Positions 5,401-57,440 of a DNA stretch of 64,000 nucleotides are shown here, in pieces. Source of the DNA: Chiloscyllium plagiosum (lineage: Eukaryota). The stretch lies in the NCBI RefSeq assembly GCF_004010195.1, contig NC_057712.1, positions 87,911,872-87,975,871 on the forward strand, in the 5' to 3' direction. The first letter of the stretch is position 1. Every line of letters begins with the position of its first letter. The notes beneath the pieces are model-generated. The model was not told where the DNA came from. It saw only the letters and a program-made list of their open reading frames with translations, and did no database searches. Made by a program: the position numbers and the translations under genes.

Positions 5401-5463
5401 TGCAACCTCCCTGAGTTCCTGTGTAAGTAATATCAAGCATGAATTGTGTATCTGCAATCTTAA

Positions 5464-13320: not shown

Positions 13321-13380
13321 TTGTTGGAGAAACTGTTGCATATCATGTATTTTGGCAGGTTTGCATCTTTTGACTTCCAG

Positions 13381-32931: not shown

Positions 32932-34761
32932 ATTAGTTCACTGTTGGGACACATCTGCTACATTAGATCATTGAAAATCATACAAGTCCAGTTATGGTTC
33001 GAGTAGTGGTTTGGACAGACAGGTAAAGCTGGGATCTGTTAGCCAGTGATTCATAATCTAACTTTATAACCACTCCTGCCCAAACCTGTTAGTGATCGAT
33101 AAAATGGAACTTTCACCCTCACTAATCCAGAATCTGGTTTCCAGCATCTGCAGTCATTGTTTTTACCTCACTGACCAGCAGAGTGTACAAACGAAACTGG
33201 GAGAGACTTCTGCAGTTTGCGATTTTCTGGTGTTTAAGAAAATCGAGATCCTCTATCGAGTGCCGACAAACCAGTGTCTCAATACACTGGCAGCAAGGGA
33301 AACTAATAAATATTTTGCGTGCATTGAAGAAAACAGCGGCGGCCTCTTTGCACCAGAGTTACGCCATGATTGCAGCAGCATTTGAGAAAGCGCAGGCATA
33401 TTAAGAAGTTGGTATTGTACCGGAGCTAGTCGGTAAGTTTGTTGGCTTCTTGCAGACAGTTGATTGCTGTTCCCTTCAGAATTACTCGGAAAGAAAAGGT
33501 GGCAAGAGACATTAGGGAAAGAACTGACGGCCTTTCAGATCAGTAACTATTGCAAGAAACAGTTCTGTCTGAACAAATGTTATTTAAAGATATATACGTT
33601 TCATACAGGTCACTTCAATGGTTGTCGTCTTGCAGACCTGCTGAGCATCACTAAAAAGAGGTGTCAAGGTAGTTGTGTTTAAAATCTGCTTCCTCCTCGC
33701 TCGTTTTTCCTTTTCTGGGCATTATCAGCTTCAGGCCATTAACTATCGAGAGGATATTAACGCTGGAGAACGCTCAGATGAAACCCAATTCTGTCCCCAC
33801 CCAGCACGGGAAGGTAGGTTAAAAAGCTTCATAGCGAGCACATTATCCATCAAATGAATATTGTTTAGTTGATGCTCAATGTGCTGTCAGCTTAATTTTG
33901 TACAAATGAAATATAAACGTGACTCATTTAAATTTGACCACAACCGATAATTAATGTTTGATTATGTAAAGCGTGCTAGGTACATCAATGTTGTCAGCAC
34001 TGAGACACCACCGTCCCGCCTGAGGGGCGAATGGACAGTGACAATCTCTGAAGCGTCTGTTCAAGAGAAACGGTGGAGCAGCGGAAGAGGCTGGGGAAGA
34101 TGCGGCATAATAATTGCCCTCCGTCTGGAAACAAAATCAAAATTCCAAAATAAAAACATGCCTCCCACCCCGAAAGTTCGGAACAAGAAACTCGGTCGAT
34201 CTGGCAATATCTGTGGAGAGGGAAACAGGATTTGATGTCTCCTGGTCAAACAGGAGCTTCAGGTCTGCAGGAAGGGCTGTTCATTGGTAGAATTAACGGA
34301 GTCTCCTATCATGTTCTCAGTATTTTCCTGAATTTTGGAAAGGTTCCTCTTTCTCCTTTGGTGACACTTTTGGTGGAATACACCGATTTTTAATCAGTCA
34401 CGAACGGTTATGTGGAGAAAACAGGAAAGTGGCGATGATGTCATGATCCCATGAAAAGGAGCAGACTGGATGGGCTGAATGGCCTACTTCTGCTCCCATG
34501 TCTCATGCTGCTATGATCCGAGACAGTAACCATTCAGGACACAATTCATAATTGGTATTTTGACTTTTTGCCCTGTCTTAAACAACCCTTGTGGCACCAT
34601 AGTAGACCAGGGTTCAATCCTACCTACGCCAAAAGCATGTGTTAATATCTCTGAACAGCTTGATTTAGAAAATATCTACCCTGTAACCCTGCATTTCCCA
34701 TGGCTAAACCATCTAGCTTGCAGGTCCCAGGACAGTATGGAAAATTTTACTTTCAAACCGT

Positions 34762-36379: not shown

Positions 36380-37545
36380 ATGAGCAGATAGGTAAGAGCC
36401 TATGGGACCAAAGGAAATTTGTTTATTTGGATCCAGGGTTATTTGAGTGGCAAGAAGCAGGGGTAATATTTGAGGAGTGTTTTGGTGATTGGAAGCCTGT
36501 GTCTAGTGCTGTTCCTCAGGGATCAGTTTTGGGTTTTCTGCTGTTTGCGGTACATATAAATGATTTAGACTTGAATATATGAGGTTCTGGATTAGTGGTG
36601 CTGGAAGAGCACAGCAGTTCAGGCAGCATCCAAGGAGCAGTGAAATCGACGTCTCGGGCAAAAGCCTTTCACGTCGATTTCGCTGCTCCTTGGATGCTGC
36701 CTGAATTGCTGTGCTCTTCCATCACCACTAATCCAGAATCTGGTTTCCAGCATCTGCATCATTGTTTTTACCTCGTTTTTACCTTGAATATATGAGGGCT
36801 GACCAGTAAGTTCACAAATGACATGACAATTTATGGATGGTAAATAGTGAGGAAGGTAGTGTTGATGTTCACTGGTCCCTTAAGGTAGCAGGACAGGTAG
36901 TTAAGGTGGTTAAGAAGAAATATGGGATACTTACCTTTATTAGATGAGGCATAGATTTTAAGAGCAGGGAGACAATGTGGGAACTGTAAAAAAATATTGG
37001 TTAGGCCACAGCTAGAGTATTGTGTGCAGTTCTGAATTCCACATTATGGAAGGGATATGATTGCACTGGAGACGTTGCCGAGGAGATTTATCAAGATATG
37101 ACCTGGGTGGCAGAGTTTCAGTTATGAAGAGATTCGATAGACTGGGATTCTTTTCTTTGGAGCAGAGGAAACTAAGTGGGGGGCACAATTGAGATACACA
37201 AAATTATGGGAGGCATAGGTAGGAAGAAACTTGTCCCTTTGGAGGGATAAATGACCACAGATTTAAAGCATGGAAGGGGCAGGAGATTTAGAGGGGGTGT
37301 GAGAAAAATATTTTTCACCCAGAAGAAGGTGGAATCTGGTGGTCACTGCCTAAGAGAGTGGTGGAGGCAAAAACCTTCACAACATTTAAGAAGCATTTAG
37401 ATGTACACTTGCAATATTAAGATATACAAGGCTATGGGCCAGATGCTGGAAAATGGGATCAGAACAGTTGGAGCTTGTTTTTGACCAGCTCAGGTTTGAT
37501 GAGCTCTAGGGCTTTTCTCTGTGATGGAGAGACTGTAACTGTATA
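36380..37545 (+). mobile_element. CR1 RT and 3' fragment, interrupted
   Basis: ORF 36337: WKPVSSAVPQGSVLGFLLFAVHINDLD. It continues after the insertion (SKF..D, LVRPQLEYCVQF). Confidence 0.88.
36585..36782. mobile_element. Palindromic family-A-related element, centre deleted
   Basis: Arms ttctggattagtggtgctggaagagcac.../...accactaatccagaa. 15-bp TSD cttgaatatatgagg at 36570-36584 and 36783-36797. A same-subfamily fragment lies at ~33120-33168. Confidence 0.88.
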
Positions 37546-38585: not shown

Positions 38586-38694
38586 TCTTAAATATGAAAA
38601 TGTTGGCCATTTCAGTTCCTCACCTCACCTCTATCACTAATGCACCTTGTTGGTGGGAAGTCTTCATTCAGTGAGTAGTAAGACAGCTTTAGCT

Positions 38695-39650
38695 AGTGAA
38701 TTTTGAGAAGATAGGTAGCTCAGGTTGAGGTTCTGGCTGTAGGATTGCTCGCTGAGCTGGAAGGTTCATTTTCAGACGTTTCATCACCATACTAAGTAAT
38801 ATCTTCAGTGAGCCTCCAAATGAAGCACTGGTGGTGTAGCCTGCTTTCTGTTTATATGTTGGAGTTTCCTTGGGTTGGTGATGCCATTTCCTGTGGTGAT
38901 ATCATCTCCAATGGTGATGTCATTTCCTGTTCTTTTTCTCAGGGCATTGTATATGGGATCTAAGTCAATGTGTTTATTGATAGAGTTCTGGTTGGAATGC
39001 CATGTTTCTAGGAATTCTTGTGTGTGTCTCTGTTTGGCTTGTCCTCTCCAATGGTGATGTCATTTCCTGTTCTTTTTCTCAGGGCATTGTGTTTATTGAT
39101 AGAGTTCTGGTTGGAATGCCATGTTTCTAGGAATTCTTGTGTGTGTCTCTGTTTGGCTTGTCCCAGGATGGATGTGTTATCCCAGCCAAAGTGGTACCCT
39201 TCCTCATCCGTATGTAAGGATATTAGTGAGAGTGGGTCATTTCATTTTGTGGCTAGTTGACGTTCATGTATCCTGGTGGTTAGTTTGCTGCCTGTTTTTC
39301 CAATTTAGTGCTTCTTACAGTTCTTGCAAGGTATTTTTAGGTGACATTAGTTTTGCTTGTTGCCTTTATAGGGTCTTTCAAGTTCATTAGCGGCTATTTT
39401 AGTGTGTTGGTGGGTTTGTGGGCTACCATGATGCCAAGGGGTGTGAGTAGTGTGGCAGTCATTTCCATCCTAGGACAAGCCAAACACAGACATACACAAG
39501 AATTCCTAGAAGCATAGCATTCCAACTGGAACTCAATCAACAAACGCATTGACTTGGATCTCATTTACCATGCCCTAAGAAAAAGAATAGGAAATTACAT
39601 CACCATAGGAAATGATGTCACCACAGGAAATGACATTACCAACCCAAGTT
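38695..39650 (-). mobile_element. Penelope-like element: GIY-YIG end, terminal repeat with hammerhead, and inverted 5' segment
   Basis: Minus strand 39360-39090: SKTNV../KIPCKNCKKH*IGKTGSKLTTRIHE..HTDEEGYHFGWDNTSILGQAKQRHTQEFLETW. 39463-39650 is an inverted (+) copy of the 3' part. Internal tandem duplication ~38905-39160. Confidence 0.85.
38772..38811 (-). ncRNA. Minimal hammerhead ribozyme motif in the PLE terminal repeat (family B)
   Basis: TCA-CTGAAGA-T-ATTAC-TTAGTATG-GTGAT-GAA-ACGT-C-TGA; stem I TCA/TGA, stem II ATTAC/GTGAT. Confidence 0.7.
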
Positions 39651-42150
39651 CAGAGACTGGTTGTAGTCCCAGAAGTAGCCACCACTCAAACCTGGCGCTG
39701 CTGGGACTGCAGTGCTGTCCTCCTTCCAACATTGTCCAGTACCTCTCTAAGTAAGGATGTCCTCCCCTAATAGGGGACAAAAGTTCATAGAATTCCTAGA
39801 GTGTGAAAATAGGTCAATTTGGCCCAACAAGTCCACACCAACTTTCCGAAGTGCATCCCATCCAGACTCAACACCCCACCCTATTGCTGTACCCCTATTT
39901 TCCCATGACCAATCCACCTAAGCTACACATTGTTTGATTTAGCCTTAACCAATTAAAAGCCAGCTGAAAGTAACTAGGTGTGAGAGAAACAACAGTGAGG
40001 ATGCATTTTATTGAGGGGGTGGATGGGAAATCCTGCAACTTTCAACTACTGTTATCTGTGAAGCAGGATGAGCAAGAGTAAGAAAAAATAGAAATGGGTG
40101 AACAACTATGATGACTTTGTTCACTCCAATTTGATACCTGTTTAAAGAAAAAGAATATTTAATTTTGTAAACATACAGACAGCTTCTAATTGTCACCCAT
40201 TATTAAAGAATTTTAGAGCATGCATCCTTTCTTAACGATACTGGTGAGGCATAGCAAAGGACGGAGTTTATAAACACAGGAACAGATTTCCTTGCGTCAA
40301 TCACAAACCTTCAAATTTAAAGTAATGCAAAACAATGTTACCAGAAATGGGTTGTCTACAAACCTCACAAAACCCAAATTGTCTGGCGGTTTGTACTGTG
40401 ATGGATATCAAGATTCAGGAGCAAACCAAAGCATATACTTCAACTCAGACCACTGGGAGCCCTAATTTTTCCTGCTATAGTTCAATGAAATTCTACATAC
40501 CCCATGCACAATGACAATATAGACTGATGATATTCTTCTCTGTCACGATGTATAAAACCACTGTAGGATGGTACTGAATTTCACTTACATGGCTGGGTAA
40601 TTTATAAGAAGGAAAAATACTTACCAATCAAAATAACTGAAGATAAAAACAAAATGCAGGGTTTGAAAAAAGCAGAAAAACCCAACAACAAAGAAATAGA
40701 CCCATCACGGGTTGAAACCAAACATTTTATTTTAAAATGTAGTGCTTAAATCAAAGACATATAAATAAAACAAAAGCAGGCTTGGGCCAGGTTTAAGTCC
40801 AAAATGCTGAATAAAGGAATGGTGTTGGCTCTGTGTGAAAACCAAAGAACCAGAAAAGATGGAGGGGAATGGGACAAGACCAAAGTAATACATTGAGCAA
40901 AGAACCAAAACTGCGAAAGCTGTGCTGATGGAGAGTGGTAACAAGGGCAGCAAATTTAAAGATATATTTCACATTTATTTTGAAAACAACACAAATTAGA
41001 AAATTCAAAGCACACTTTCTTTTCCAGTTTATGACAACTTAAAAATTATAGAAGGAGCAAAGAACTACAGGTAGTAAAATGTGGCTGAATCATGGAAACT
41101 GAGGGCTGAAGGAAATATTATTCCATTCCCTGGGAAGGGCGAGCAACTATATAGTGATAGTCTGTTGTTTTCTAACAGTGTTGATATTATGAATGGTAAC
41201 AGCATGAAATAAGATTTGTGAAAGGAAAACATGAACACATGCAAACATTTAAATAAAACCAACACGTTTCCCCTTGTCGTATTCACAGCAGGTCAGACAA
41301 TGCACTATTTTATAACAGTAAGGTAGGGACATATCTTTATACTGAATGAAACAGTTAGGACGGAATCTTGCAGGGGTCTGAGCAATATGGGCTATGGTGA
41401 GATTTGCAACAGAATTGGACAAGAATTCCAGTGAGGCCCGTCTTGTTGTCAGGGGACCTTTTATGCTTTTGGCAAACAGCGCAGCACATTTCTCACTTGG
41501 CAGCAATGGGTGACTAATTAAGGGGATTATTTCCGATTAAATGCCTTGTTACAAGCCCAACTCTGTTCTTTCATATGCAGCTTCCTATCTTATTAGCACA
41601 CCAAGCAAATTAGAGAATTCAGCTTGGAAATCAGTCTGGGCACCAGGCAATTTCAGCTTGCAGGCTGCGCTGAAGGATCCCTGTGTTGGCATTGGTTACC
41701 AACATTTCATGGCAGCACCATAAATACTGGCCATATACATCCCACATTCACAAACATATGTGTCAACCTCGAAGAACCCTGGTGACGCATCTTAGATTCA
41801 CTTCTGCAATTTAATGCTGTATCAGAAACTATCATTGAAACACTTCTGCAAGGACACCGTGCATTCATTGTCACAGACTGGGACTGGACCAGGCTGTATG
41901 TCCACCTGATACCTCATTCTCATAGTTCTCAATCACTCTGAGCTTATCTGGACGCTCTCACCATTCATGCCTTGATATAACAATTTTATGCTCATATTAC
42001 TTCTGTTCAGCAGGGACCCAAAGGAAGGAAGCTTGTCAGCAAGCCTTAGTCAGGTCAAGGGAGTCAGTCATTGCACAGGGATTCTTGACACAGGAAGTCA
42101 AGGATAGCCTCTGTTACCAATCCATTGGCTTGGACACAATCATTCAGCTA

Positions 42151-42365
42151 GGAAAAAGTAAGGACTGCAGATGCTGGAGATCAGCGTTGAAAAGCGTGGT
42201 GCTGGAAAAGCACAGCAGGTCAGGCAGCATCCGAGGAACAGGAGAATCTACATTTCGGCATAAGCCCTTCATCAGGATTGACAAAGGGCTGATGAAGGGT
42301 TTATGTCTGAAACATCAACTCTCCTGTTCCTTGGATGCTGCCTGACCTGCCAGCACCACATTTTC
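42151..42365. mobile_element. Palindromic family-A element, decayed cores
   Basis: Arms around cccttcatcagg..ctgatgaaggg. 18-bp TSD gacaca(a/g)tcattcagcta at 42133-42150 and 42366-42383. Confidence 0.85.
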
Positions 42366-42504
42366 GACACAGTCATTCAGCTACTTGTGCAGTCAGGGTC
42401 AGGCTGCTCTCCAATAAAAGAGGTGATTTACTGAATGTTGGGTAACCTACCACCTGTTTTATGCCTTTCTGCCTAATTGGGGATTTTTTTCATTCTAGAC
42501 TAGA

Positions 42505-43462
42505 GAGGTAGAGTCATAGTCATACAGCACAGAAACACTCCCTGCAACTCATCCATGCCTACAAAGCTTCCCAAACTTAATTAATCCCACATTCCTGTAT
42601 TTAGCTCACATCACTCTAAACCTTTTCTATTCATGTCCACATCCAAATGTCTTTTAAATGTTGTAACTGTGCCTGTACCTACCACTTCCTCTGGCAGTTC
42701 ATGCCACATACGAACCACCCTCTGTGTGGAAAAGTTGCCCCTCAGGTCCCTTTTAAATATTTCTCCTCTCACCTTAAAAATATGCCCCCTAGTTTTGGAC
42801 TCCCCCACCACAAGGAAAAGACCTTTGCTATCCACCTTATCTGTGCCCCTCATGACTTTATAAACCTCTGCAAGGCCAAAGAGCCACACAGTCATACCAT
42901 GCCTCAATCTCCTAAGGTCCAGTGAAAAAGGCCTGTCCAGCCTATCCTTATAACTCAAATCCACCCATCCAGGCAACATCCTGCTAAATCTTTTCTGAAC
43001 CCTCTCCATTTTCATAATGTCCTTCCTGTAGCAGTGTGACCAAAACTGGATAAAGTACTCCAAAAGTGGCCTCACCAACATCCCGTACAACTCCAACTTT
43101 ACATCCAAACTCCTATACTCAATGGACTGAGCGTGCTAAATGCCTTCTTAACCATCCTGTTGACCTGTGATGTAGCTTTCAGAGAATTATGTAACTGAAC
43201 CCCTAGGTCTCTCTGTTCAACAACACCACCCTGGGCCCTACCACCATTAACTGTGTAAGCCCAGCGCTCATTTGTTTTACTAAAATATAATACCTCGCAT
43301 TTATCCAAATTAAACTCCATCTGTCACTCCTCAGCCCATTGGCCTAATTGATCAAGATCTCTTTGTAATCTTAGGTAACCTTCTTCCCCGTCAACTATAT
43401 CACCCAGTTTATTGCCATCTGCAAACTTACTAACCATGCCTCCTAAATTCTCATCCAAATCC
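42505..43462 (-). mobile_element. CR1 RT C-terminal and 3' fragment
   Basis: ORFs 43099-43320 (MEFNLDKCEVL) and 42611-43108 (LVRPLLEY..QFWS...TRGH.FKV). Confidence 0.92.
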
Positions 43463-44076
43463 AAGATGTGAAATGAGTGACACAACTGTTACATTTGGTG
43501 TGAGGTGTCCCAAGTAAATGAGGGGGCAGAACAGTGGGAAGGGTTAATTGTGTCAAGGGTTGTGGTCAGTGAAAGCAAGTGAGAGGAGAAGTTGCAGGTT
43601 TTACTAGAGGAATAGAGCATGAGCCTTGGTGGGAGGTGAGTACAGGAACAAAGATAGAGAGATTGTGAGGCATCATAGGGAAAATAATGGCATTAAATTT
43701 GGCATGATGTCACTGATTATCTTCCGACATTGCTGGGCATTCCTTCAGATAGCTGAAGCTGCTTTAACTGGGTGGTAACCCTGGACCAGGCTGTTTTTTG
43801 GTATTATGGCCACCACTACTGCTTCTGGGGGGAAAGAAAATCCCACCCATTCCCCTTCCCCATCTGTATGTCCACAGCAAATGGCAGGAACCATGCAGAG
43901 CATCTCCAGACTGATAGTGCTTATCTGGGTGCATAACAACGTTTAAACATGACATAGATGTAAGGGATGTCAGTGAATTCTGGGATATCGGCTGAATAGT
44001 ACATCGCTCTTAAAACGGCACATAGTAAGATGGGGTTGAAATTGAACACAATAGTCATCATAGGGATGGAATGAGA

Positions 44077-44333
44077 TATAACAAGAAAGCAAGCTGAGCC
44101 TTGCAATGAAAATCCCAACAAAAAACAGACTTAATCAAAAAAAATTCAATCTTGGTCATGACATATCATTAAGGACCAGAACAAACACCCTCAAGACACA
44201 TTATAACAAGAAAGCAAGCTGAGCCTTGCAATGAAAATCCCAACAAAAAACTTAGACTTAATCAAAAAAAATTCAATCTTGGTCATGACATATCATTAAG
44301 GACCAGAAGACCAAACCCCCTCAAGACACATTA
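44077..44333. repeat. Local tandem duplication, period 125 bp
   Basis: tataacaagaaagcaagctgagcc...tcaagacacat starts at 44077 and again at 44202, with small indels. Confidence 0.9.
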
Positions 44334-44499
44334 AGAATGGAGCCTAGAACCTAATGTTTTCTTATTTAAAAGACAAGCATATGGTGTTACATTCCAGATG
44401 CAAGTTAATTGGACAAACTACTAAACTTTAGGCAAAATACACTTTATTTTTACACTACAATTAAAATACAGACAAAATAAAAATAAAATGAGAAACCCC

Positions 44500-45012
44500 T
44501 CATTCTTCTAATCTCCAGCAAAGACAGACTATGAGACAGAGCATCAGAAGTGGGCTATTCAGCTAATTCAATGAGATCATGGATCATCTGATTGTCTCAA
44601 ATCCATTTTCATTCCTCTTCCCCATAACCCTTGCTTCCTTTACTGATCAAAAATCTGTTGATCTCAGCCTAGAATATACTTAATGAGCCAGCCTCAGTAG
44701 CCCTCTGTGGTAAAGACGTCCACAGACTCTCCCACAAGAGGAATCAATATTTCTGCATCTACCCTGTCAAGGCCTCTCGTGTATGTTTCATTCTGTTATT
44801 CTTCTACATTCCAATGAATACTGGCCTAATCTCTTTATCCTCTCCTTGTAAGGCACTCCTTCCAAACCTAAGATCAATCTAGTGAACCTTCTCTAGACTT
44901 CCTCCAATGCAGTATATCTTGCCTTTGATAAGGGGCTCAAAACTGTCCACAGTATTCTAGCTGTGGACTGACTAGTGCTTTGTATAGTTTGAGCAAAAAT
45001 CTTCCTACTTTT
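44500..45012 (-). mobile_element. Old CR1 3' fragment; appears to continue at ~46060-46400
   Basis: 3'UTR-like attcaatgagatcatgg; ggggctcaaaactgtccacagtattctagctgtgg is the reverse complement of PQLEYCGQF.AP. Confidence 0.7.
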
Positions 45013-45014
45013 AT

Positions 45015-45340
45015 GATTAGATTAGATTAGATTATAGTGTGGAAACAGGCCCTTCGGCCCAACAAGTCCACACCGACCCACCGAAGCGCAACCCACCCAG
45101 ACCCATTCCCCCACATTTACCCCTTCAACTAACACTACGGGCAATTTACCATGGCCAACTCACATAACCTGCACATTTTTTTGGATTGTGGGAGGAAACC
45201 GGAGCACCAGGAGGAAACCCACGCAGACACGGGGAGAATGTGCAAACTCCACACAGAGAGTCACCTGAGGCGGGAATTGAACCCGGGTCTCTGGCGCTGT
45301 GAGGCTGCAGTGCTAACCACTGTGCCACCATGCCGTCCAC
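45015..45340 (-). mobile_element. HE1 SINE, young, full length
   Basis: Near-identical to 7551-7868; (attag)n at the left end. Confidence 0.93.
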
Positions 45341-45357
45341 AAACGTGGGCTCGTCCG

Positions 45358-46060
45358 GGAGAGATGAGCATAGAGATCTCGGTGTCCAGGTACACAGATC
45401 CTTGAAAGTTGCCACCCAGGTTTACAGGATTATTAAGAAGGCATACAGTGTATTAGTTTTTATTAATAGAGGGATCAAGTTCCGGAACTATGAGGTTATG
45501 CTACAGCTGTACAAAACTCTGGTGCGGCCACACTTGGAGTATTGTGTACAGTTCTGGTCACTGCATTATAAGAAGGATGTGGAAGCTTTGGAAGGAGTGC
45601 TGTGGAGATTTACTAGGATGTTGCCTGGTATGGAGGGAAGGCCTTACGAGGAAAGGCTGAGGTACTTGAGGCTGTTTTCGTCAGAGAGAAGAAGGTTGAG
45701 AGGTGACCTAATAGAGACATATAAGATAATCAGAGGGTTAGATAGGGTGGACATGGAGAGCCTTTTTCCAAGTATGGTGACGGTGAGCATGAGGGGGCAT
45801 AGCTTTAAATTGAGGGGTGATAGATATAGGACAGATGTCAGAGGTAGTTTCTTTACTCAGAGAGTAGTAAGGGTATGGAATGCTTTGCCTGCAACAGTAG
45901 TAGATTCGCCAACTTTAAGTACATTTAAGTCCTCATTGGACAAGCATATGGACGTACATAGAATAGTGTAGGTTACATGGGCTTCAGATTGGTATGACAG
46001 GTCGGCGCAACATCGAGGGCCGAAGGGCCTTTACTGCACTGTAAAGTTCTATGTTCTATG
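45358..46060 (+). mobile_element. Young 5'-truncated CR1 with open RT C-terminal frame
   Basis: ORF 45330-45971: RDLGVQVHRSLKVA...LYKTLVRPHLEYCVQFWS...RGHSFKL...FFTQRVVRVWNALP. Tail (gttctat)n. Confidence 0.93.
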
Positions 46061-48879
46061 TGACTCTTTGTGTCATCATAATCCTTGCCTTCCCAACTTA
46101 TTTGTGACTTTCATAAATTTAGCACTCATTTTCCTCTTCCAAGTCATTAACATATATTGTAAATAATTGTGGCCACAGCACTAACCCTGTGGCACATCAT
46201 TAATTCTAGGTTATATCCTGAGAATGACTCCTTATCCCAAATCTGTCTGCTATTAATTAGCCAATTTCCTATCCATGCTCACATACATGGTCTTTTATTT
46301 TATAATGTAATCTAATGTGCAGTAACTTATCAAACACCTTCTGAAAATCCAAATCATTTGCATTCACTGCTTCTCCTTTATCTATTAGTAAATTTGTCAT
46401 GCATGATATATTCTTGGCTATGCAACTTGTGAAATCCGTTCTCACCATTGTCCAAGAATCTGGCCTGAAGTACATGCTATGGAATGTGTAAACATGATCC
46501 TATGCTTTCTGCCAAAACCCCTGTCTTTATCCCACACTTCCCTTCTGCAGTTACTCTTTCAGGTACAAAGAACTGCCACTTACATTTCTTGGAAAAGTCC
46601 AACACCATTTCCTTCTGATTACAATGATTTTAAGAGCTCTTGCAAAAATACATAATGCAATGATATACTAACTCTCTACTGAAAAACAAGACCAAAACTC
46701 TGAGAGTCTCGTGTTGATGTCCTTCACCAGCCCCACAAGAGGATCTCTTTTGCATCGAAATGCATGTCAGTTGAGAATGGTTAATAGAAAACTTTAAAAG
46801 GTGAGGTCCAACATGGCAGTGCATGTTAAAAATCAATGTAAAACACTGTTGTCACAATCTGCCCACTCTGCATATTTGCAGCAATATGCATGAACTGGAA
46901 CCCTTCCAATTGTGATGCATTGCAAGCTGCACCAGAAGCAGATCAGTCATCATTTTCAACATTTCTCAGCTTCATTGCAGAATCCAATCGTACAATTCCT
47001 ATATCATTACAAATCATACATTTTGTTCTTTTTAAAGTACTTTGAAGTATTATTTACTTTTTAAACACTGTGTTAAAATTTCTGTCCACCGTTTCATGAT
47101 TTTAACAATTGAGCCCTTTCAAAATGTCAAAAATGACTTGTTAACAATGCACAGTCTTTGCCTCCACTGTGCAGTTCCATAGGTCACAAGATTACTTTTT
47201 ATCAAGAAACTTCTGTCAATTTATCCTAAATTTATCCTCAATTGCTTTTACATTGATAGGTCTGAAATCAGCATCTCTTGTAATCAGTATTATTACCAAC
47301 TCCCTGACACCTTTGAAGACAAACATCAACTCTCAAAGAAATTAACAAAATGGCAGCTCATTACATGCCTCAGTCATTCAATACTGATTATACATCCCGT
47401 CTAATGAAAGTAAATGCAAAGGAGTTAACATTATTTTTGAATTGAGGTCATGACGTGTCATTTTTAATACAAAATTACAAAAGTGAAAGATTTTATAAAA
47501 ATAATTTAAATGGAATATTATCTAATACAAAGAATGAGAATATTTACAGCACAGAAAGCAGCCCATCATATCCATTACTAATCTTGGCAAAAGCAACTCA
47601 GCTTATCCCAGCCCTTGGCTTTTTCTTCACATCCCTGGTCAGATAATTATCCAATTCCACTTTGAAAACTGCAACTGAATCTGTCCCCATTCTCTAATAA
47701 AGGTTTTCCTCATATTCTCTTTGACTCTTTTGGAATTCACCTTTAATCATTGCCCTGTAATTTCTGACTCTTCCTCCGACAGCATCGTCTTTTCTGTAAA
47801 AACCCTGTCCAGGCGCTTCATGATTTTGAAATCTAGCTTCTCAAATCTATCTGGTATCCAGAAAGCATTCTCATAAATGTTTCATATTCTCTCTGAGGCC
47901 TTCATATCCTTCCAAAAGTGTAACAATCAGCAATCAGAATCAGACACAGCACTCGACTTAAGGCCAAACCCATATTTTACATATGTTGGAATATTTTTGC
48001 ATTTGTAATATTTTGCCTCTATAAAGCCCAGGATGCCATGTGCCTTATTATCTGCTTCCTCAACCTGCCCAATACAAAAATAAAGTTTATTCTGTAAGTA
48101 GGCCCAGTTGGACATGTTATAGTGGTTTAAATGATACTTGACACAGACAAAGCAAAGGCTGTTTTCCGCTAGTGCGCCTTTGGGGATACAACACAAAAGA
48201 TTGACAAATTCACATACTTATTAACTTTACAGTTAAGCTTGTCACTTAGGCATACAATTTGTTGTGTGACCAGGAACAGTATAAGATAATTACAGTATTA
48301 ATGTCTCATTGAAAGACTGGACCTTGGTTGGGATAAACATTTTCCATCGTAAGGCTAATCAAACTCTATCTGTGTCAATGTCCAGTGACTGTGTCCCTTG
48401 TAAACGCAATCAGGTTCCCAATATGCAACTTTTTTTTTCTGTAATATTAACAAGTTTCTACTTATACTACATTATCATTGTTATGTCTCCTTGTGTAGCT
48501 AAATGACTCATGCGTCCTCTAGATCTGAGCAATCCTTCATAAAACTCATATTTAAGTATGTTTTGTTTTAACACTTAAAGTCTAAGCTAAGTGTCACATT
48601 ACACCAATCTGCAGCCTGCTGGATATCAATCTACCATCTCTATATCTACATTGTTGTTGAATTAATTCCTGCACCTATGGACATCAATTATGTCCTTTGC
48701 TCTTTGAAGCCACATTCATTGGTAATTGTTGCTCCTTGCCCCAGTTCCTGGTGGCCTATTAGGAGGTTAGATTTACAAGTTCCAATGAGCTATACCACAA
48801 ACCTGCCCCCAAATCTCTTCCTATCTAAATGCAGTCCTTTAGGCAATATTTTTATCAGTGATTATCAGCATCTACACCA

Positions 48880-49630
48880 GTAGCAAACTTCATATTCAAT
48901 AATGAGTCCAACCTGGATTACCAGCTACTCTGTGTGGTACACAATTCTAATCCAGGGATAAGACCCCAATCCCAAACCATCTGCCGCTCCTGTGTGTTTT
49001 TGAGTTTGGCTTCCACATCCTTTCCTAGTTGTTTGATGTCCTGTCGGATTGATTGAATGTGCTTCCTTTGTGTCCCAGCTTCTTTCTTCATCTTCTGTAG
49101 ATGCTCTGGCAGGTTTTGGATTGGCTTCCCTTTAAAAAACAGGTATCTCAACAAGTCTTGGGTTCAATGATTGATTATACTCATCTCGTCCCTGTGCCGA
49201 GGTTAGACTTAGATATCACCAAATATCTGATTGTCAATGGTACTTGGGTGTGGAAGCAGAAACTTGAGTTGCTCACTGGGCAGTATATTACTATTCTGCT
49301 TATGAGGCACACTGGTGGTCTCATTGTATTCCTCTTCTCTACAAGTGTTGGTTCATGGTAGATGCTGGATATTTCAAGAGTGCAGCTAAGGAAGATAATA
49401 AAATCATACGTGGCTTTCAACTTATCCTTATGAACAAGTACCACCTACACCCAAGCAGTAAGCCACATGTTTGGGTACAGGAAAGTCCTTCAGCCATTTG
49501 CTATCTCCCCTAATCACTGTATTTTTGTGCATTATACCGTTGTGATGGTTAAAGTCAAATTGAGCATAAAAGTCCATTGGAACATTGCTTTGCTCAATGT
49601 AATTTATATGTGAACAATTCTTTATAGCCA
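48880..49630 (-). pseudogene. Possible env/fusion-glycoprotein relic of an LTR element or endogenous retrovirus
   Basis: Consecutive - strand ORF pieces: Cys-rich SCTLEI...PVCL...YCPVSNSSFCF, then heptad-like HIQSIRQDIKQLGKDVEAKL, then aromatic VWDWGL. Order resembles a class-I fusion protein ectodomain end. Pattern recognition only. Confidence 0.35.
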
Positions 49631-51004
49631 ATAACTAATAATTCATTAATAAATTTCAAGTAGCTGTATACAATTATTCTAGCAATTCAAATTTCTATTT
49701 ACAATTGAATTGGCAACTCAGGCGACAAAATTTAGCCATGTAGCCAGCCCATATCCTCATGTGCATTTACTCGAATTAACCAGCTTCTCTCATTCAGGCT
49801 CAACAAGTTACGCAAAATGTGAACCTGCAATCAACATTCACATTAATTAGACAATTTAATGATAAATAAATTGAGTACTTCTTGATTGCAAGAGATGTTA
49901 CTTGAGTTTTTATTGGATAGGCCTGTTGGGTTCACAACAAACTGACTCAATTCCTTTCACAATTATGGTTGCCAGGCAAATCAGCAAGTCTGCAGTTTCC
50001 ATAGTAAAGAGAACATTGCAGATACTGGTCATCACCAATTAATCTTTATTATTCATCACATTTCCATAATCCTTGATCTGTGTCAAGTGTTACAACCGAA
50101 ATTTCCTTTTCATTTCCACACGTGGCTACTCGCACTTTATTAGGGCATTACCAGCAAAGTGCTAAGCTTGGTTTTGCAAGAGGACCTATTCTTGATTCTC
50201 CTATATAGTCATAACTGGGTTAATGATCCATGAACCTTAGCTTTGACGACTCCAACTTCTTGCTGCTGTTGCTGTGAGGTTCCATATTATCTCTTTATAT
50301 TATGTACAACCAGCCCTTGAGCTAACATACATTCTCACCTGCTCCAGGCAATCGTATAATCATGCACTGCTTCAAGTGTACATCCACTATTCATGTATGT
50401 GGTGGTTCCTTTTCTTTCCCTTTCAAGAATTTGCTGGAGCTAAAAATTATGTATCCTGACTTAAACTAGCTTTTAATGTTATATTCTGGAACTAGACAAT
50501 TTGTTCAAAGAGCAACAATCAGTTTGTTTAAAGTGCACATTGCCTGACCACACGGTGTAATGATTTCATTTCAGCAATCTGTGGGTCTCAGGGCTCCCTG
50601 GGCTATTGCATTCCCCGAGAATAGACTACATTTAATTGGCTTCTTCTTTGACTTTGGTATGAAAGATTGGAATTTAAAAATGACTAGATCTTTATGCACA
50701 GTTGTGGAACTGTTTATAAGCTTTAAAGTAATACCAGCTATTCTTACTCAGTAACTTGAACCTTCACATTTTGATAATTTCCCTCAGCCCTGTTGCTTAA
50801 TTACAGAGTGTTGGATGAATTGTCAAGTATGTCCAAACCTCTCAGTTTTTTTTTTCGCCTTCAGAATTTAAATCACCTAACAGGTTTGTCTGTAAATTCC
50901 AAATAGCAACATTGGAAATAAAAGTAAGTTTGCCTTAGTCTTTCAAGAATTGTGGCAACTATCAGAATCCTCAAATCTTAAGCTTTACACCATGTTTTTA
51001 AACA

Positions 51005-52235
51005 AAGAGTGAAGAACAGTATAGCAGAGGAACTGGCCTTTCAGCCCACCATGACAGCACCAACACATGATACATTTCTCAACTAAAAACCTTTTGGCTC
51101 TACACAGTCTGTGTTCCTCTATTCCCTGCTGATTCATATATCTGTCCAGACACCTCTTAAGGTTGCCTTATATCTACCACCATCATCCCCTCTGGCAGTG
51201 CATTCCAGGCACTTACCTCCTATGGTAAGTGCAAAAAACTTCCTTCTCTCATCCCCTTTAAACTTATACATTAAACCTATGTCCCAAGTAATTGACATTT
51301 CACCAATGGAATAAAGACTCCAACTATTCATTTTTGTCCATATTTCTCATAATATTGTAAACTTCTATCAGGTTGCCCCTCATCTGCTTTAAACCTATGT
51401 CCCAAGTAATTGACATTTCACCAATGGAATAAAGATCCAACTATTCATTTTTGTCCATATTTCTCATAATATTGTAAACTTCTATTAGGTTGCCCCTCAT
51501 CTGCTGACATTTAACTGAAAACAAACCAAGTTTGTCCAATGTCTCCCCTTTAGCTAACAACCTCCAAACCATGAACCATCCTGGGATATCATTTCTGGAC
51601 CCTCTCCAAAGCCACCACATATTTCTGGTAGTGTGGTGATCAGAACAGCACACAATATTCTAGATGTTGCCGAACTAAACTTCTATACGACTACAGCATG
51701 ACTTGCCAATTTTTATATTCTATGCCCTGACTGATGAGGCAATCATGCCATATGCCTTCATGACCACCTTATCAACTTGTGTTGCTACTTTCATGGAACT
51801 GTGGACCTGTATGCCTAGATCCCTCAGTATGTTAATGCTGCCATGGGTTTTGTCACTTACTGTATACTCCCCTCCTGCATTGTACCTTCCAAAATGCATC
51901 ATTTCACATTTGTCCAGATTAAACTCTATCTGCCATTTATTGGGACAACTGTCCAGCCTATCTATATCCGGTTGTATCCTCTGGCAATCCTCCTTCCTAT
52001 CCACGGCTCCACCAATCCTTGTGTGGTCCACAAACTTACTGATCAGACCATCTATATTCTCCTCTAAGATACTTATATAGTTAACAAACAACAGGAGTGC
52101 CAGCAGTGATCCTTATGGAAGAACATTGGTCATAGATCTCCAGTCAGAAAAATACCTCTCCACTGCTACTTTGTGTCTTCTATGACTAAGCCAGTTCTCT
52201 ATCCAATCTACCAGCTCAGCAGACCTTATGTGACT
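51005..52235 (-). mobile_element. CR1 RT and 3' fragment with internal 118-bp tandem duplication (51271-51505)
   Basis: ORF 51720-52091: LISKFVDHTRIGGAVD..DCQRIQ.DIDRL...FNLDKCEMMHFG. Confidence 0.9.
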
Positions 52236-53058
52236 TCACCTGCTGAGTTTCTCCAGTAATTTCTGCTTTTGCTTCAGATCTTCAGCAGCCTCAGTTCTTT
52301 GTTTTATTATATTTCAATGCTGTTAACTTATGTAATTAACAGAAATAGAAAGCTTTAACATACCTATTCTAACAAAGGGGAGAAATAATGTTTAGGTTTT
52401 GTGAGCAAAAGCCCAGTCAATGATATGGGTTTAAAATGACCTTAGAAGTGTAGAGGGTGGGTAAGGAGGTGGAACGTGTGGAGAGAGACTTCAAAAGTGG
52501 GGCTTCAAAAAAAGGTAAAATGAGGTGAGCAAATAATGCACAGGTGGTGGAATAAAAGAAAGTGGTGAATTTGAGGTTTGGGGCATTTTGTTGGAGGAGA
52601 AATGGATAATTATAGCATTGATAGAAGCTAGAGAAATAGAGGGTAAGGCCATGAAGAAGTATAATTATAGAGATAACAATTTCAAATACGATGCCCCAAT
52701 GGACTGAGACTCAATAAGAAGAAGCTGTTGGGTGAGCGTGAGAAAAAAATAATATCCAGCGATAATATCAGCATTGATGTGACCCTTATAAGTTACAAAC
52801 CCTCTGATAGTGTCCAGGGATGTACAGGTTAGATGGATTATCCATGGGAAGCACAGGATTCAGGAATAGAGTGGGAGGATGGTACTAGGTACAAAGTTCT
52901 TCAGTGGGGTGGTGTAGACTCGATGGGCCGAATGGCCTGATTCCACACTCTAGGGAATTCTATTGATTCTATGATCCTTCCTAACTAGAATACCTACTCT
53001 TAATTATAATGCTATTTTTGTTCTCATTGCAGGAGCAAGAATCAAAACCATACAGACA

Positions 53059-53240
53059 ATGAATGGATCTCAGACACTATGTTGGACCTGGCACAATGAA
53101 TCTGATTGGATAAATGAGTCCTTCACCGCTCATTATCACATGTTTGATATGGTAGAATCAATACTCCTTCCTTCTTTCATTGGTGTTATCTGTTCCACAG
53201 GATTGGTCGGAAATATTCTCATCCTCATTACCATTACCAG
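53059..53240 (+). CDS. MCHR2: MCHR2 first coding exon (N-terminus and TM1); the exon starts at 53033 with 26 nt of 5'UTR
   Basis: Translates [60 protein letters not shown](R), closely matching MCHR2 '[26 protein letters not shown]'. Acceptor ttttgttctcattgcag|GAG at 53032/53033. Donor CAG|gtacag at 53240/53241. 182 coding nt, phase 2. Confidence 0.95.
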
Positions 53241-54039
53241 GTACAGAGAAACAAAACTGAAAGATTAAGATTGCACCAGAAGTGTACAGAATTATTGAAT
53301 ATTAATGCTTATATTTTAGTTGAAGCAAGGTGTTATTTTGAGTCATAAGCTTTTAGAATAACACAGAATTCTATCTGGTAAACACTTGCATTCTTCTGCT
53401 GTCAAGTTGTACAAAGATAAGGAACAATTGTTGGTGCAGGCATTCCAAAGCAGGTAAATAAGTCTGACTTAAACATTCTAAATAAACCTGTATTGAAATC
53501 AAAAGTAAAATAAGACACTGAAAAATCTGTATTAATTGGCAAATGTCCCACTGATCCTTAGATATTGGTGATTTTGTGCTATAAAAGATCATTAGGCATT
53601 TATTAAAGGTGAATTGGAGAGGGAGGATGTATTCCTCAACCCTCAGACAGTCATGAGTCAGTCAGCGCCTTGCAAACTCTAATAGTTAGTTTAATAAAGT
53701 TAGAATGTGACTTCCACTCTCAGGCACAGAACATTCTGTACGCAATCTGACCAATCTGATTGGCTGGCCATATTTTAGTCTCAGCATCGCCAGAACACCA
53801 TAGTGGTCAATGCTGGAACAACAAGCAGTTCCAAGAAGAACTGAACGGAAAACAGCAAATGCTGGAGATGACAGCGGGTCAGAGAACATCTCTTGCTCCA
53901 AGAAGAACTGAATATGCAGTGGAATTTTCCTGTTCTTTGAGGTGTTGGGAGAGGTGGTGAAAAGAGAAATAGGATTCAATGAAGAGTGCAGGAGGGCAGG
54001 CCAAGAGCTGCACCAGGCAAACAGAAAACTGAGATGTCA

Positions 54040-54700
54040 ATAGCAACAAAACAGAATTATTACTGTGGTAAACAGTATAGGCATCAAGTGATAGACCAAG
54101 TAATTCCACTACTAATGGATCAGATCTAAAGTCTGCAGTCCTGCTGTATCTTGTCTTGAATGGTCATGGGTAATTAAACAACTCACTTGAGGAGGACGTT
54201 CTTCAAATATTCTTATACTCAGTCATGGGGGAGCCCAGCACATCAGCGCAAACGTTAAGGCTAATGCATTAACAACAACCTTTAACTTGAAGTGTTGAGT
54301 GAATAATTCATCTCATACTATTCCAGAGCTCTCCAGTGACATATATGCCAAAATTCAACCAACCTTTTTCATTCCACGTGTTATCAAGAAAACCTTAGAG
54401 TCACTGAATACTGAAAAGATTATGGATCCTGACAATATTCTGGCAATTGTCCTGAAGACCTGAAATCCAGAACATACCATCTGCAACACTGGCACCTACC
54501 TAACAATGTGGAAATTTGCCCCAGTATGCCCTATACATGAAAAGCAAAACAAATCCAACCCAGTCCATTGTCACCCCATCAGAATATTCTTGATCATCAG
54601 TAAAATGATGGGAGGTGCCATCAACACTGCTATCAGGCAGCACCTATTCGTGCTTTCCTGCTCAGTTTGAGTTCCACCAGGGCCACCTAGCTTCACATAT
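54040..54700 (+). mobile_element. Degenerate non-LTR LINE (CR1/L2 group) ORF2 fragment in the MCHR2 intron
   Basis: Reads ..GGAQHISA..KA.A.., DPDNI..IVLKT, TGTYL..WKFA.V.P.HE KQNKSNP..HPI, the pre-RT motifs 'GPD.I', 'WK.A.V.P..K', 'NYRPI'. Related relics at ~19400-19700 and ~20700-21190. Confidence 0.6.
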
Positions 54701-55898
54701 TCACATGTGCAAAGTTAGTAAGGAGTTTTACCTAACAACATGAGCACTATCACACACATCCTAATCTGCATAATTGCATTAACCTGTCACTTTGTGTTCA
54801 TAAATCTGCTCCCAATAGATTCACTTTCTGCCTGATCATAAGTTGTTCATGATCTTTGCACATGCACATCTTCTCCATTTTTTTCACCCTACTGTTGATG
54901 GTCAGACTTCCAGGCACCTAGCTCCTAAATTCTGGAGTTCCTTTTCTGTCTGACCTACTCCTTACCCTTCTTTATGACCAAGCTTCAAACCTGCCTTTTT
55001 GGTCGAGGTTTCAATCACCCCTGATAATAAGCCCTTCTCTGACTTGGTATCAGTTTTATCTGATTGCTCTTCACAAGAGTGACTTGGATTTTTGACAACT
55101 TCCTAGTTTAAAGACATCATGTAAAATGACTCAGCATTGTGAAGCAGCTCATAAGTGGCCTGATGCTCTTGTAACTGCCAAAGGACTATGTATTTCTTTT
55201 TACCAATTTAATAAAATTGAGGCTAGTTTGAGTTCAATCAATTATCCTACAATTGACTACACTGCCCATAGTCCAATGGAAGTTAGGGACATCGTTTTTA
55301 ATTCATAAATTCCCCATCCATGTTGCACACTGGGAACATAAATCATTCAAAGCGCCCTCTGATGCATTGAGGCAAATGATGGAAAATATGAAGCCTAATG
55401 CTTTCTCACTCACTTGAATATACCTGCATGAAGTAGATAGTTGGTAGGTTTGGAGCCATAGTCGCTGGGATTCCTCATCCAACCATTATCTTTATGGTTG
55501 CAAATCCATGAACATCCAAACTTTCAATTTGCAGTTTGTTCAGGACAGATTCCTTGCTTGGAGTGTTATGTCAGAAAATTATCGCAGATATTACACTAAA
55601 ATTACATGAATTAATATACTTTGATAAAAATACAGAGTCCTTAAAATAAGGTCTTATTCTTAAAAAAAATATATACCTAATAAATTACCCTTAGTAAATG
55701 TTAGAATTAACAGGACATGTGGTTATAATTGAGCAATACATATTATTGTCATCACACTGTAGTCTCCTTTACTGAACCCATTGCTTGAATAAACCCATCA
55801 CTAAACAGCATGAAGTATCTCTCATGAGGCACCAAATATATTTAATTTACTGGGCAATAATATCAATTCTGACTGAATTACATTTGGATTTGTTTCAG

Positions 55899-56108
55899 AT
55901 CAGTGCGGAAGACCATTCCAGATATTTATATTTGTAACCTAGCTGTGGCAGATTTGGTTCATATTATTGGAATGCCATTTCTGATTCATCAGTGGGCACA
56001 AGGAGGCAAGTGGGTGTTTGGCAGTACTCTCTGCACCACTATCACATCACTAGACAGTTGCAACCAGTTTTCGTGTTGTGCAATTATGACTGCTATGAGT
56101 CTGGACAG
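55899..56108 (+). CDS. MCHR2: MCHR2 second coding exon (ICL1, TM2, ECL1, TM3 up to DR of DRY)
   Basis: Acceptor tttgtttcag|A at 55898/55899 completes the AG+A Arg codon. Then [69 protein letters not shown](R). Donor AG|gtaagc at 56108/56109. 210 nt, frame consistent with the previous exon. Confidence 0.96.
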
Positions 56109-56439
56109 GTAAGCAAGAGAACAAATTTGTTAAGTTAACAGATCTTTAAATTAATCAAAAATAACTCTTTTTAAAAATTAATTCATGCCTGTGATGTGGA
56201 CACACTTCACAATTAAGGCCAACAATTTTAGTTTTTTGCCAGTTGCCTAATTGAATACGATTCAGTGACTTGCTCAGCCATTTCAAATGACAATTGAGAG
56301 TCATGCACTTTATTGTGGGTTGGGAATTACATTTGGCCAGAACAATGAAGGAAATACTTCCTTTTCTAAAGATTATGAGTAAAACATGTGTACTTTTTAA
56401 TGAGAATGCAGTTACTTAATGGCTACCATTATTTTTAAT

Positions 56440-56537
56440 GATTTGGAGACAATCACCTGATGAAGGAACGGCACTCCGAAAGCTAGTGCTTCCAATTAAA
56501 CCTGTTGGACTATAACCTGGTGTTGTGTGATTTTTAA
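56440..56537 (+). mobile_element. Short PLE-derived element (family C) inside an older SINE in the MCHR2 intron
   Basis: 13-bp TSD cattatt(t/g)ttaat at 56427-56439 and 56538-56550; contains a hammerhead motif. Confidence 0.75.
56454..56488 (+). ncRNA. Minimal hammerhead ribozyme motif, sense to MCHR2
   Basis: CAC-CTGATGA-A-GGA-ACGGCAC-TCC-GAA-AGCT-A-GTG. Stem I CAC/GTG, canonical CUGAUGA, stem II GGA/TCC, palindromic AGCT, CUA triplet. Confidence 0.75.
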
Positions 56538-57440
56538 CATTATTGTTAATAGTTTTTTATTATAGATTTATTTCATTAATTTTGTTTGAATTTCTCAGCT
56601 ACTGTGTTGAGATTTGAACTCACGACTCCAGTTCGATCAATACAAGCTTCAATCACATACCCACTCCTCATCTTGTACTTACCTATCCAGTTGTGAGTGT
56701 TAAAACAAGGAACTCAGTCAGGTCTCACAGCTGGGAATTTAAGAGTCAGATGTGCATCAGTCAATTCAATGAAATGTCCATATCACAAGATGCCCCACTA
56801 TCTGAATATGATAGAAGATCACTCCAATATTTGAGTTATCTGTGTCAAATAATCAAGTATGACAGGAGCCCTCAAGCTATAAATATGATGACCAATCTAT
56901 GTTCACAGGATATGCTTTAATCATGTCTTCATAAACCATAGAATATGTCTTTGTAAGCACACAGAATACAGTACAAGAATCATTGAGTCGATACAGAGCT
57001 TATGATTGAAAAGGTGATGGTTTAACAATGCAGTACCTGTGAGAAGATAAAAGGAAAAACACTATCATGTATCTTTAGCCCGTAGAATTTAATCAAACTC
57101 TTAAAGTACCAAAGGAAGTTCCTGCCTGGAGAATTTTGAGGTAAAAACTTAACCCTGTCAAGCTCAGAAAACTATTAGCAGATAGTTGTTGCATGCATAC
57201 ACCCTGCTGAATTTGACTTTCCATTGATGCCTCTGGGTCACTTTTTATACCTGTGCCAAAGATAAATTACTCCTTCCAAATTAATAAAATATTTTTCCAT
57301 TTCTTCCTATTTCTTCTCTACAATTTTCCTTGGATCACTTCAATGTAATAATGGTGACCCTGTGATTACTTCATTATTTATGGCAACACAGGACAGTCGT
57401 AAAATATACTTTCTTGTTTTGTTATTAAGCCACTTCAGCG

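What the first reader, a model, noticed from the sequence alone, without database searches (positions are those of the whole stretch)
38772..56488. Three unrelated families converge on the same minimal hammerhead with a palindromic 4-nt stem III
Seen: family A ATTC-CTGAAGA-A-GGGCn4GCCC-GAA-ACGT-C-GAAT (5520); family B TCA-CTGAAGA-T-ATTACn8GTGAT-GAA-ACGT-C-TGA (38811-38772, - strand); family C CAC-CTGATGA-A-GGAn7TCC-GAA-AGCT-A-GTG (56454). Stems I and II differ in sequence but stay complementary. All have one extra nucleotide after A9. The 4-mer after GAA is self-complementary in each (ACGT vs AGCT). It is too short for a hairpin, but it could pair between two copies. Established: minimal PLE and satellite hammerheads with palindromic stem III are proposed to act as dimers. 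Inference: this covariation argues for selected ribozyme function that needs two same-strand copies.
Basis: partly seen in the sequence, partly recalled or inferred. Interest (0 to 1): 0.75.

Follow-up and report, generated by a model that had tools for sequence, protein, structure and literature searches.

The report
Shark Penelope hammerheads, known minimal type
The three small self-cutting-RNA motifs are real but are the already described minimal hammerheads of Penelope-like jumping genes, and the way their genomic copies were inserted suggests that two ribozyme-bearing RNA copies are likely held together during insertion, which would give these ribozymes the partner they are predicted to need.

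Summary
All three motifs are present as written. [quoted passage not shown] So they are related, not convergent. Exact cores number 131,671 (A), 27,401 (C) and 23,506 (B-type). Stem I covaries between B subfamilies. The palindrome does not covary within families (mostly CpG decay), and only two states exist. Close copies are nearly all head-to-head, so they cannot form same-strand dimers. What I add: short copies start just before stem I, often with an extra G (likely a capped start). 42 of 46 typed head-to-head C pairs have one tailed and one untailed arm, mostly inside one target duplication. Arms differ at a subfamily site in 12 of 49 pairs against a 6% background, which points to two templates per insertion. 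This scan noted the same motifs, cap mark and single two-template cases earlier on other DNA. Cleavage itself is untested.

The parts
5520..5555 (+). Family A minimal type I hammerhead (subfamily with 4-bp stem I); predicted cut between 5551 and 5552; 5520 is the likely transcription start (A at -4)
5449..5630 (+). Whole A insertion: 15-bp target duplication (5449-5463, 5616-5630), 10-nt inverted tail stub (5464-5473), 48 nt identical to 5203-5250 (5468-5515), then the pLTR arm without tail, which holds an AATAAA at 5600-5605
38772..38811 (-). Family B minimal hammerhead in the 3' pLTR of a 5'-truncated Poseidon-type PLE; predicted cut after 38775
38690..39470 (-). Decayed Poseidon-type element: GIY-YIG remnant with stops (about 39470-39089), partial internal duplication, pLTR down to about 38690
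39472..39648 (+). Inverted partial arm of the same B element
56454..56488 (+). Family C minimal hammerhead (AGCT, A17), stem II damaged by two changes; predicted cut after 56485
56427..56550 (+). Whole C insertion: 13-bp target duplication with one mismatch (56427-56439, 56538-56550), inverted tail stub, G at 56448 and likely start A at 56449, arm without tail
4549..4772 (.). Head-to-head A pair (cores 4662 -, 4680 +; the + core is broken)
11275..11489 (.). Old head-to-head A pair
13378..13615 (.). Young head-to-head A pair with identical arms (cores 13471 -, 13489 +)
22480..22588 (+). A copy with inverted tail stub; palindrome mutated
32800..32934 (-). Young solo A copy beginning with G then ATTC
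36587..36773 (.). Head-to-head A pair, both cores truncated
42150..42350 (.). Head-to-head A pair (cores 42275 -, 42289 +), CpG-decayed
63165..63353 (.). Head-to-head A pair; the minus arm begins at the predicted cut site
55903..56109 (+). Host exon, best match melanin-concentrating hormone receptor 2; the C copy lies about 340 nt downstream in sense orientation, probably in the intron
   Evidence: E 4e-36

Best explanation
The three motifs are minimal type I hammerheads carried in the pseudo-LTRs of three Penelope-like retrotransposon families, and the window's copies are likely dead insertion products of elements whose ribozyme likely cuts only weakly and only when two copies pair. Shown: the motifs sit in pLTRs downstream of RT/GIY-YIG remnants. 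In tandem copies the A motif lies about 160 nt upstream of the ORF start. Short copies begin 4 (A) or 8 (C) nt before the core, often with an untemplated-looking G. Head-to-head pairs have one tailed and one untailed arm in one target duplication. Inferred: transcription starts at that A and the RNA is capped, so stem I is short because the ribozyme is the first structure in the mRNA. The PLE protein primes both DNA strands from the two internal start sites and copies uncut RNA back to the cap. The two arms often come from two different pLTR templates (two RNAs, or the two pLTRs of one tandem RNA). That complex is the likely place where the 4-nt palindromes pair into a shared stem III and the cap-bearing 32-37-nt leader is occasionally cut off, probably with help from the protein.
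For: PLE context: Poseidon-type EN and RT pieces upstream of B in most of 30 loci. Neptune-type CX4CxxC linker plus GIY-YIG upstream of C in L021, GIY-YIG pieces also in L020 and L022. A natural 725-aa frame with RVT_1 (E 3e-6), linker and GIY-YIG (E 7e-4) upstream of an A motif in L193. pLTR running into the ORF start, and a same-strand pair 334 nt apart, in L116. Start site: 44 of 171 A arms begin at -5..-1, against 7 at -10..-6 and 6 at -30..-11; 27 of 70 arms in inverted pairs begin there. The base before the start is G in 66 of the first 100 listed purine cases for A (24,847 in all; p 3e-8 against base composition) and G 69, T 22, A 9 of the first 100 for C (4,338 in all) (my counts). An extra G marks capped full-length L1 insertions (PMC11702581, passage). 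Both strands primed: 2,426 tight C pairs genome-wide; of all 50 listed, 42 tail/no-tail, 3 no-tail/no-tail, 1 tail/tail, 4 untyped; A pairs 30 of 35. Two templates: loop-centre base differs in 12 of 49 pairs against 6.4% at 62 background sites (p 4e-5); 2-nt indel differs in 6 of 48; linked differences inside perfect target duplications in L005, L172 and L206. Literature: dimer and trimer constructs cut weakly, monomers not (PMC4209133). The Anolis PLE ribozyme cuts only with protein, uncut RNA is the main template, there are two internal start sites, both strands are extended, and the protein is a predicted dimer (PMC11167929).
Against: No cleavage, dimer or start site was measured here. Most pairs have matching arms (37 of 49 at the loop centre; two random copies would differ in 58%), which also fits one RNA or fold-back copying. 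Gene conversion with other copies could make arms differ. The G at many junctions can also be read as microhomology with the partner arm. Starts at the cut site are few and not clearly above neighbouring positions (4 of 129, with 4 also two bases further on). 1,735 RNA reads from one poly(A) single-cell run showed no pile of starts or ends. In the Anolis system ribozyme mutants transpose normally in vitro (PMC11167929), and Naiad elements thrive without hammerheads (PMC8557442). No intact pLTR-ORF-pLTR copy was found among 20 long-frame loci; the assembly has gaps there.
Confidence: 0.62

Rival explanations
1. The dimer forms only in cis, between the 5' and 3' pLTR hammerheads of one tandem transcript, as in the published model. 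Head-to-head pairs are made from one RNA, or by fold-back, and say nothing about ribozyme pairing.
For: Same-strand partial tandem in L116. Arms match in about three quarters of pairs. Self-priming has been proposed for inverted PLE junctions (PMC3846280, passages). In L248, L261 and L263 the second arm carries 3' UTR sequence, which fits priming on the 3' pLTR.
Against: Pairs in which both arms end at the start site yet differ at subfamily sites (L005, L232). The excess of mismatched arms over background. Fold-back would not explain the strict one-tail, one-no-tail pattern inside one target duplication.
Confidence: 0.25
2. The motif is kept mainly as a protein-bound RNA fold or a start-proximal promoter element, and cleavage is incidental. 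The 4-nt palindrome could be a DNA-level signal.
For: It sits right at the likely start site. Most copies were made from uncut RNA. D. virilis Penelope has an internal promoter whose conserved downstream element contains ACGT (PMC2377424, passage). Cleavage is dispensable in vitro (PMC11167929).
Against: The full catalytic core and stem I pairing are kept across two PLE clades, with compensatory changes. Family C has AGCT, not ACGT. The spacing from the inferred start does not put a downstream-promoter consensus (recalled) on the motif.
Confidence: 0.1
3. Three unrelated repeat families converged independently on this ribozyme, each genomic copy being under selection.
For: Stems differ in sequence and length between A, B and C.
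Against: All are PLE pLTRs. Copies decay neutrally by CpG loss. The same plan is reported across metazoan PLEs (PMC4209133).
Confidence: 0.03

Closest known systems
Minimal hammerheads (min-HHR) in pLTRs of metazoan Penelope-like elements (Cervera and De la Pena 2014, PMC4209133; parts 1-2 of 4 read)
   Same: Type I core, no true helix III, extra base between 9 and 10.1, G10.1-C11.1, palindromic 15.2-16.2, short helix I, several consensus families per genome, mostly single dispersed copies and opposite-strand neighbours, dimer model.
   Different: About 182,600 exact cores in three patterns here, against about 9,000 (Xenopus) and 4,000 (coelacanth) there; the search methods differ. Sharks are not named in the parts read. 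No start-site or two-template analysis in the parts read.
Anolis Poseidon element PAc (Frangieh et al. 2024, PMC11167929; parts 1-2 of 4 and passages read)
   Same: Two internal RT start sites that define the tail, both strands extended, uncut RNA as main template, hammerhead near the pLTR-ORF junction.
   Different: There the ORF starts inside the ribozyme; in family A the ATG lies about 160 nt downstream. The parts read do not describe head-to-head pairs, a cap mark or two RNA templates.
Inverted-pLTR insertions of EN+ PLEs (Arkhipova et al. 2013, PMC3846280; Craig et al. 2021, PMC8557442; passages read)
   Same: Head-to-head pLTRs, tail on one end only, target duplication around the whole unit.
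   Different: Explained there by self-priming. Here the arms differ at subfamily sites more often than background.
Animal non-LTR retrozymes (PMC7229834 part 2; bioRxiv 10.64898/2026.07.22.740005 parts 1-2)
   Same: Type I hammerheads of PLE origin, reported also from one chondrichthyan.
   Different: Retrozymes are same-strand tandem arrays; these copies are solo or head-to-head.
LINE-1 twin priming and cap-derived extra G (PMC11702581, passages)
   Same: Both DNA ends primed; extra G at the RNA's 5' end.
   Different: L1's inverted segments mostly abut; here both arms copy the same stretch of template.

Membership tests
PLE minimal hammerhead | Core CUGANGA and GAAA..UH around helix II, closed by helix I | tested here: met
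PLE minimal hammerhead | One extra nucleotide between 9 and 10.1 | tested here: met
   68 of 68 A, B, C hits
PLE minimal hammerhead | G10.1-C11.1 pair | tested here: met
   A and C window copies have it; B family G-C in 37 of 62 and G-U in 20 of 62, window copy decayed to A-U
PLE minimal hammerhead | Palindromic 15.2-16.2 in place of helix III | tested here: met
   ACGT in 76 (A) and 53 (B), AGCT in 93 (C) of the first 100 listed; deviations in A and B mostly CpG decay (my counts)
PLE minimal hammerhead | Lies in the pLTR of a PLE | tested here: met
PLE minimal hammerhead | Self-cleaves, and as a dimer rather than a monomer | not testable with these tools
   needs an assay; starts at the cut site inconclusive; no read pile-up
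EN+ PLE, Neptune/Nematis type (A, C) | RT followed by C-terminal GIY-YIG with a CX2-5CxxC linker | tested here: met
   A: L193 (both Pfam scores below curated cut-offs). C: linker and GIY-YIG pieces in L021, RT not seen
EN+ PLE, Penelope/Poseidon type (B) | RT followed by GIY-YIG without the cysteine linker | tested here: met
   L041, L051 and others; GIY-YIG E 0.003
EN+ PLE clades | Placement in an RT tree with reference elements | not tested
   no reference sequences at hand; clade names rest on the linker rule in PMC8557442, and Neptune versus Nematis is not resolved
EN+ PLE insertions | Inverted pLTR, tail at one end, target duplication | tested here: met
Non-LTR retrozyme | Same-strand tandem repeats, each unit with a hammerhead | tested here: not met
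   neighbours within 100 nt: 35 head-to-head and 4 same-strand for A; within 5 kb: B 15 of 16 head-to-head, C 10 of 14

The most novel reading that the evidence does not exclude
PLE insertion complexes routinely hold two capped RNAs, one per protein subunit, each beginning with a half-built hammerhead. The palindromic stem III is a two-RNA checkpoint that can cut only inside this complex, and the ACGU versus AGCU letters plus stem I keep co-resident families from cross-pairing. The thousands of head-to-head mini-insertions are a fossil record of these RNA dimers.
Probability: 0.3. Interest if true: 0.65.

Novelty: new member of a known kind. Interest (0 to 1): 0.3.

Why it matters
As stated, the finding repeats a 2014 result in another vertebrate. 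The part worth keeping is indirect. The role of PLE hammerheads and the origin of head-to-head PLE insertions are both open (PMC8557442, PMC11167929). This genome offers thousands of young pairs that locate the likely start site and allow a count of how often two templates enter one insertion. If two RNAs share one complex, that explains how a ribozyme that needs a partner finds one, and it can be tested in the existing in vitro system.

Tried and rejected
Rfam: no match at gathering thresholds. Folding z-scores of the motifs and leaders: none significant; cofolding two copies gave other pairings than the hammerhead dimer and is uninformative. Search for further lineages with AATT or ATAT: 2,104 matches against 111 reversed. 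The first 100 are mostly doubly decayed copies of known families, and the one recurring ATAT string (8 of 100) is a dead fragment carried as a passenger in longer insertions, so no third palindrome state was found. Intact pLTR-ORF-pLTR copies: none among 20 long-frame loci chosen from 150 listed hits. A pile-up of 5' ends before stem I was not seen in family B (1 of 25 arms at -10..-1). No RNA holder listed. Of two raw poly(A) single-cell runs laid, one gave 1,735 reads on both strands with no pile of starts or ends, the other none; this library type is a poor test. Starts at the cut site: inconclusive. The BLAST peak for C at -3 was an artefact of subfamily mismatches; direct reading gives -8. 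PDB search of the 725-aa frame: nothing. Lunse et al. (dimer cleavage of PLE hammerheads) was not held; I know it only from the review PMC6765202 (passages). No supplements were read; those of PMC4209133 and PMC11167929 may hold shark motifs or junction data. Rows dropped: 5 of 67 distinct B rows before alignment A1 (2 false hits, 2 out of register, 1 truncated); 4 of 50 pairs untyped for tail, 2 for the indel, 1 for the loop.
Full report
Observation. The window comes from a 3.56-Gb vertebrate genome, probably a shark; that label is recalled and echoed by earlier notes, not tested. A scan for core plus stems, with no palindrome required, found 78 motifs in 100 evenly placed 10-kb stretches, against 1-3 in each of five resampled controls: 45 A, 13 C, 10 B and 10 others. 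Five of the others belong to an older family (D) that shares downstream sequence with A and also has ACGT or its decay products. Exact patterns give 131,671 A, 27,401 C and 23,506 B-type cores genome-wide, with 0, 3 and 34 for the reversed patterns. The window copies are partly atypical or decayed.

What they are. B lies downstream of a GIY-YIG remnant in the window, and related loci carry RT-thumb and GIY-YIG frames with no cysteine linker: Penelope/Poseidon type. C continues upstream through a simple-repeat spacer into GIY-YIG pieces, one with a CX4CxxC linker. A lies downstream of frames with the same linker; L193 holds a natural 725-aa frame with RT and GIY-YIG matches. By the linker rule in PMC8557442 (passages) A and C are Neptune/Nematis type; no tree was built. 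In L116 a pLTR runs into the ORF start about 160 nt after the core, and a second same-strand motif follows 334 nt after the first. So all three are pLTR hammerheads, related by descent. PMC4209133 (parts 1-2 of 4) lists the extra base after 9, G10.1-C11.1 and the palindromic 15.2-16.2 as hallmarks, and reports no monomer cleavage and weak dimer or trimer cleavage.

Selection. In 62 natural B motifs the outer stem I pair is U-A in 34, G-C in 13 and C-G in 12. 93.9% of cells pair, against at most 41.9% when partners are slid; 0 of 500 shuffles reach the score. These are a few events in source lineages, counted many times. The palindrome is different. A15.1 and U16.1 belong to the core, so only the inner pair is free, and a random lineage would be palindromic one time in four. 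Within families it does not covary: by my count of the first 100 listed, A has 76 ACGT with 22 of 24 deviations being CpG transitions, B 53 with 45 of 47, and C has 93 AGCT. A search for AATT or ATAT lineages found none. The evidence here is thus one CG-GC swap plus retention of a mutable CpG in the sources; the wider support is the 2014 survey.

Same-strand partners. Among A arms in the 1-Mb sample, neighbours within 100 nt are head-to-head in 35 cases and same-strand in 4. Among the first 100 listed hits, neighbours within 5 kb are head-to-head in 15 of 16 (B) and 10 of 14 (C). Such copies cannot form a cis dimer. The partner must come from a tandem source transcript or from a second RNA.

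Where copies begin. Of 171 A arms, 44 begin at -5..-1 relative to the core, 7 at -10..-6 and 6 at -30..-11. Of the 70 arms in inverted pairs, where no upstream sequence can hide, 27 begin at -5..-1. RNA reads show the same edge: 97 reads have loose ends before the A at -4. Long copies have C or T before that A; where a purine stands there it is G in 66 of the first 100 of 24,847 (p 3e-8). In C, long copies have C before the A at -8; otherwise G 69, T 22, A 9 of the first 100 of 4,338. Both sites fit initiator consensus sequences (recalled), and an extra G marks capped full-length L1 insertions (PMC11702581, passage). I infer a capped start just before stem I. Some G's can be read as microhomology with the partner arm. 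Family B showed no such pile. These copies contain the whole uncut motif; 4 of 129 arms start at the predicted cut, which is inconclusive. This agrees with PMC11167929 (parts 1-2), where uncut RNA is the main template and the ribozyme cuts only with protein.

How pairs form. There are 2,426 tight head-to-head C pairs. Of all 50 listed, 42 have one tailed and one untailed arm, 3 no tail, 1 two tails and 4 could not be typed; the 42 lie in target duplications scoring 8-16. A pairs: 30 of 35. This matches priming of both DNA strands from the two internal start sites. Both arms copy the same stretch. They differ at the non-CpG loop-centre base in 12 of 49 pairs, against 6.4% at 62 background sites (p 4e-5) and 58% expected for two random copies. 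They differ at -4 in 4 of 13 and at a 2-nt indel in 6 of 48. L005, L172 and L206 show linked differences inside perfect 13-16-bp duplications. A simple mixture puts two distinct templates in about a third of events. Against this: most pairs match; T/A changes in the small hairpin could arise by inversion; gene conversion among tens of thousands of copies was not controlled; and the two pLTRs of one tandem RNA could supply both arms.

Mechanism. The most likely picture: a capped PLE RNA begins with the hammerhead, and a protein dimer (predicted for PAc, PMC11167929) holds two pLTR segments and primes both strands. In that complex the palindromes can pair into a shared 4-bp stem III and cut occasionally. 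ACGU and AGCU cannot pair with each other, and A and B differ in stem I, so families would not cross-react (inference from base pairing). Cleavage, dimerisation and the start site are not measured.

Novelty. The motif, the dimer model and the inverted layout are published. I did not find the cap mark or a count of two-template pairs in the papers read, or through searches; most subscription papers, Lunse et al. and all supplements were out of reach or unread. Other agents of this scan reported the same motifs, the capped start and single mismatched-arm cases. I reached those readings before looking, but they are not independent support. PMC6155905 and PMC10018344 (passages) added nothing. Verdict: a new, very abundant member of a known kind; interest 0.3.

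Noticed in passing
L246-L253, L261-L264: Eight young A-subfamily insertions (8 of the first 100 hits, so perhaps 170 in the genome) all switch from the pLTR at -7..-31 onto the same host-like sequence of 0.7-1.3 kb or more, 98-100% identical, at slightly different points each time. Three then continue into ORF pieces, and three have a second inverted arm inside one 13-15-bp duplication. It looks like repeated template jumping to one co-packaged or read-through RNA.
   Followed up: partly
window 5468-5515 and 5203-5250: The A insertion carries 48 nt identical to DNA 265 bp upstream, joined through a 6-nt microhomology with the tail stub.
   Followed up: partly
L111, L114, L126, L138 and others: A fourth, older family (D) with stem I AGTT/AACT and ACGT shares downstream sequence with A; its copies also start at about -5.
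   Followed up: partly
listing; L087, L144: One young B subfamily has U at position 17 (GUU triplet) and a G-G or A-G mismatch in stem II; GUU is recalled as a slow cleavage triplet.
   Followed up: no
listing: CpG decay of the B palindrome is lopsided, ACAT 30 against ATGT 13 of 100; context effect or a non-palindromic sub-lineage.
   Followed up: no
window 5600-5605: The A subfamily with the 4-bp stem I carries AATAAA about 50 nt after the predicted cut site.
   Followed up: no
window 55903-56109: Exon of an MCH receptor 2-like gene; the C copy sits in sense orientation just downstream.
   Followed up: partly
window 19137-19254 and 20320-20437: A 118-bp perfect inverted duplication about 1.1 kb apart; not examined.
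   Followed up: no
window 608-1303, 42501-43476, 45365-45971, 51463-52206, 57438-60024; 7551-7868, 25783-26061, 34760-35061, 45016-45334: LINE-like RT fragments (CR1-like, recalled) and a family of about 300-bp SINE-like repeats.
   Followed up: no
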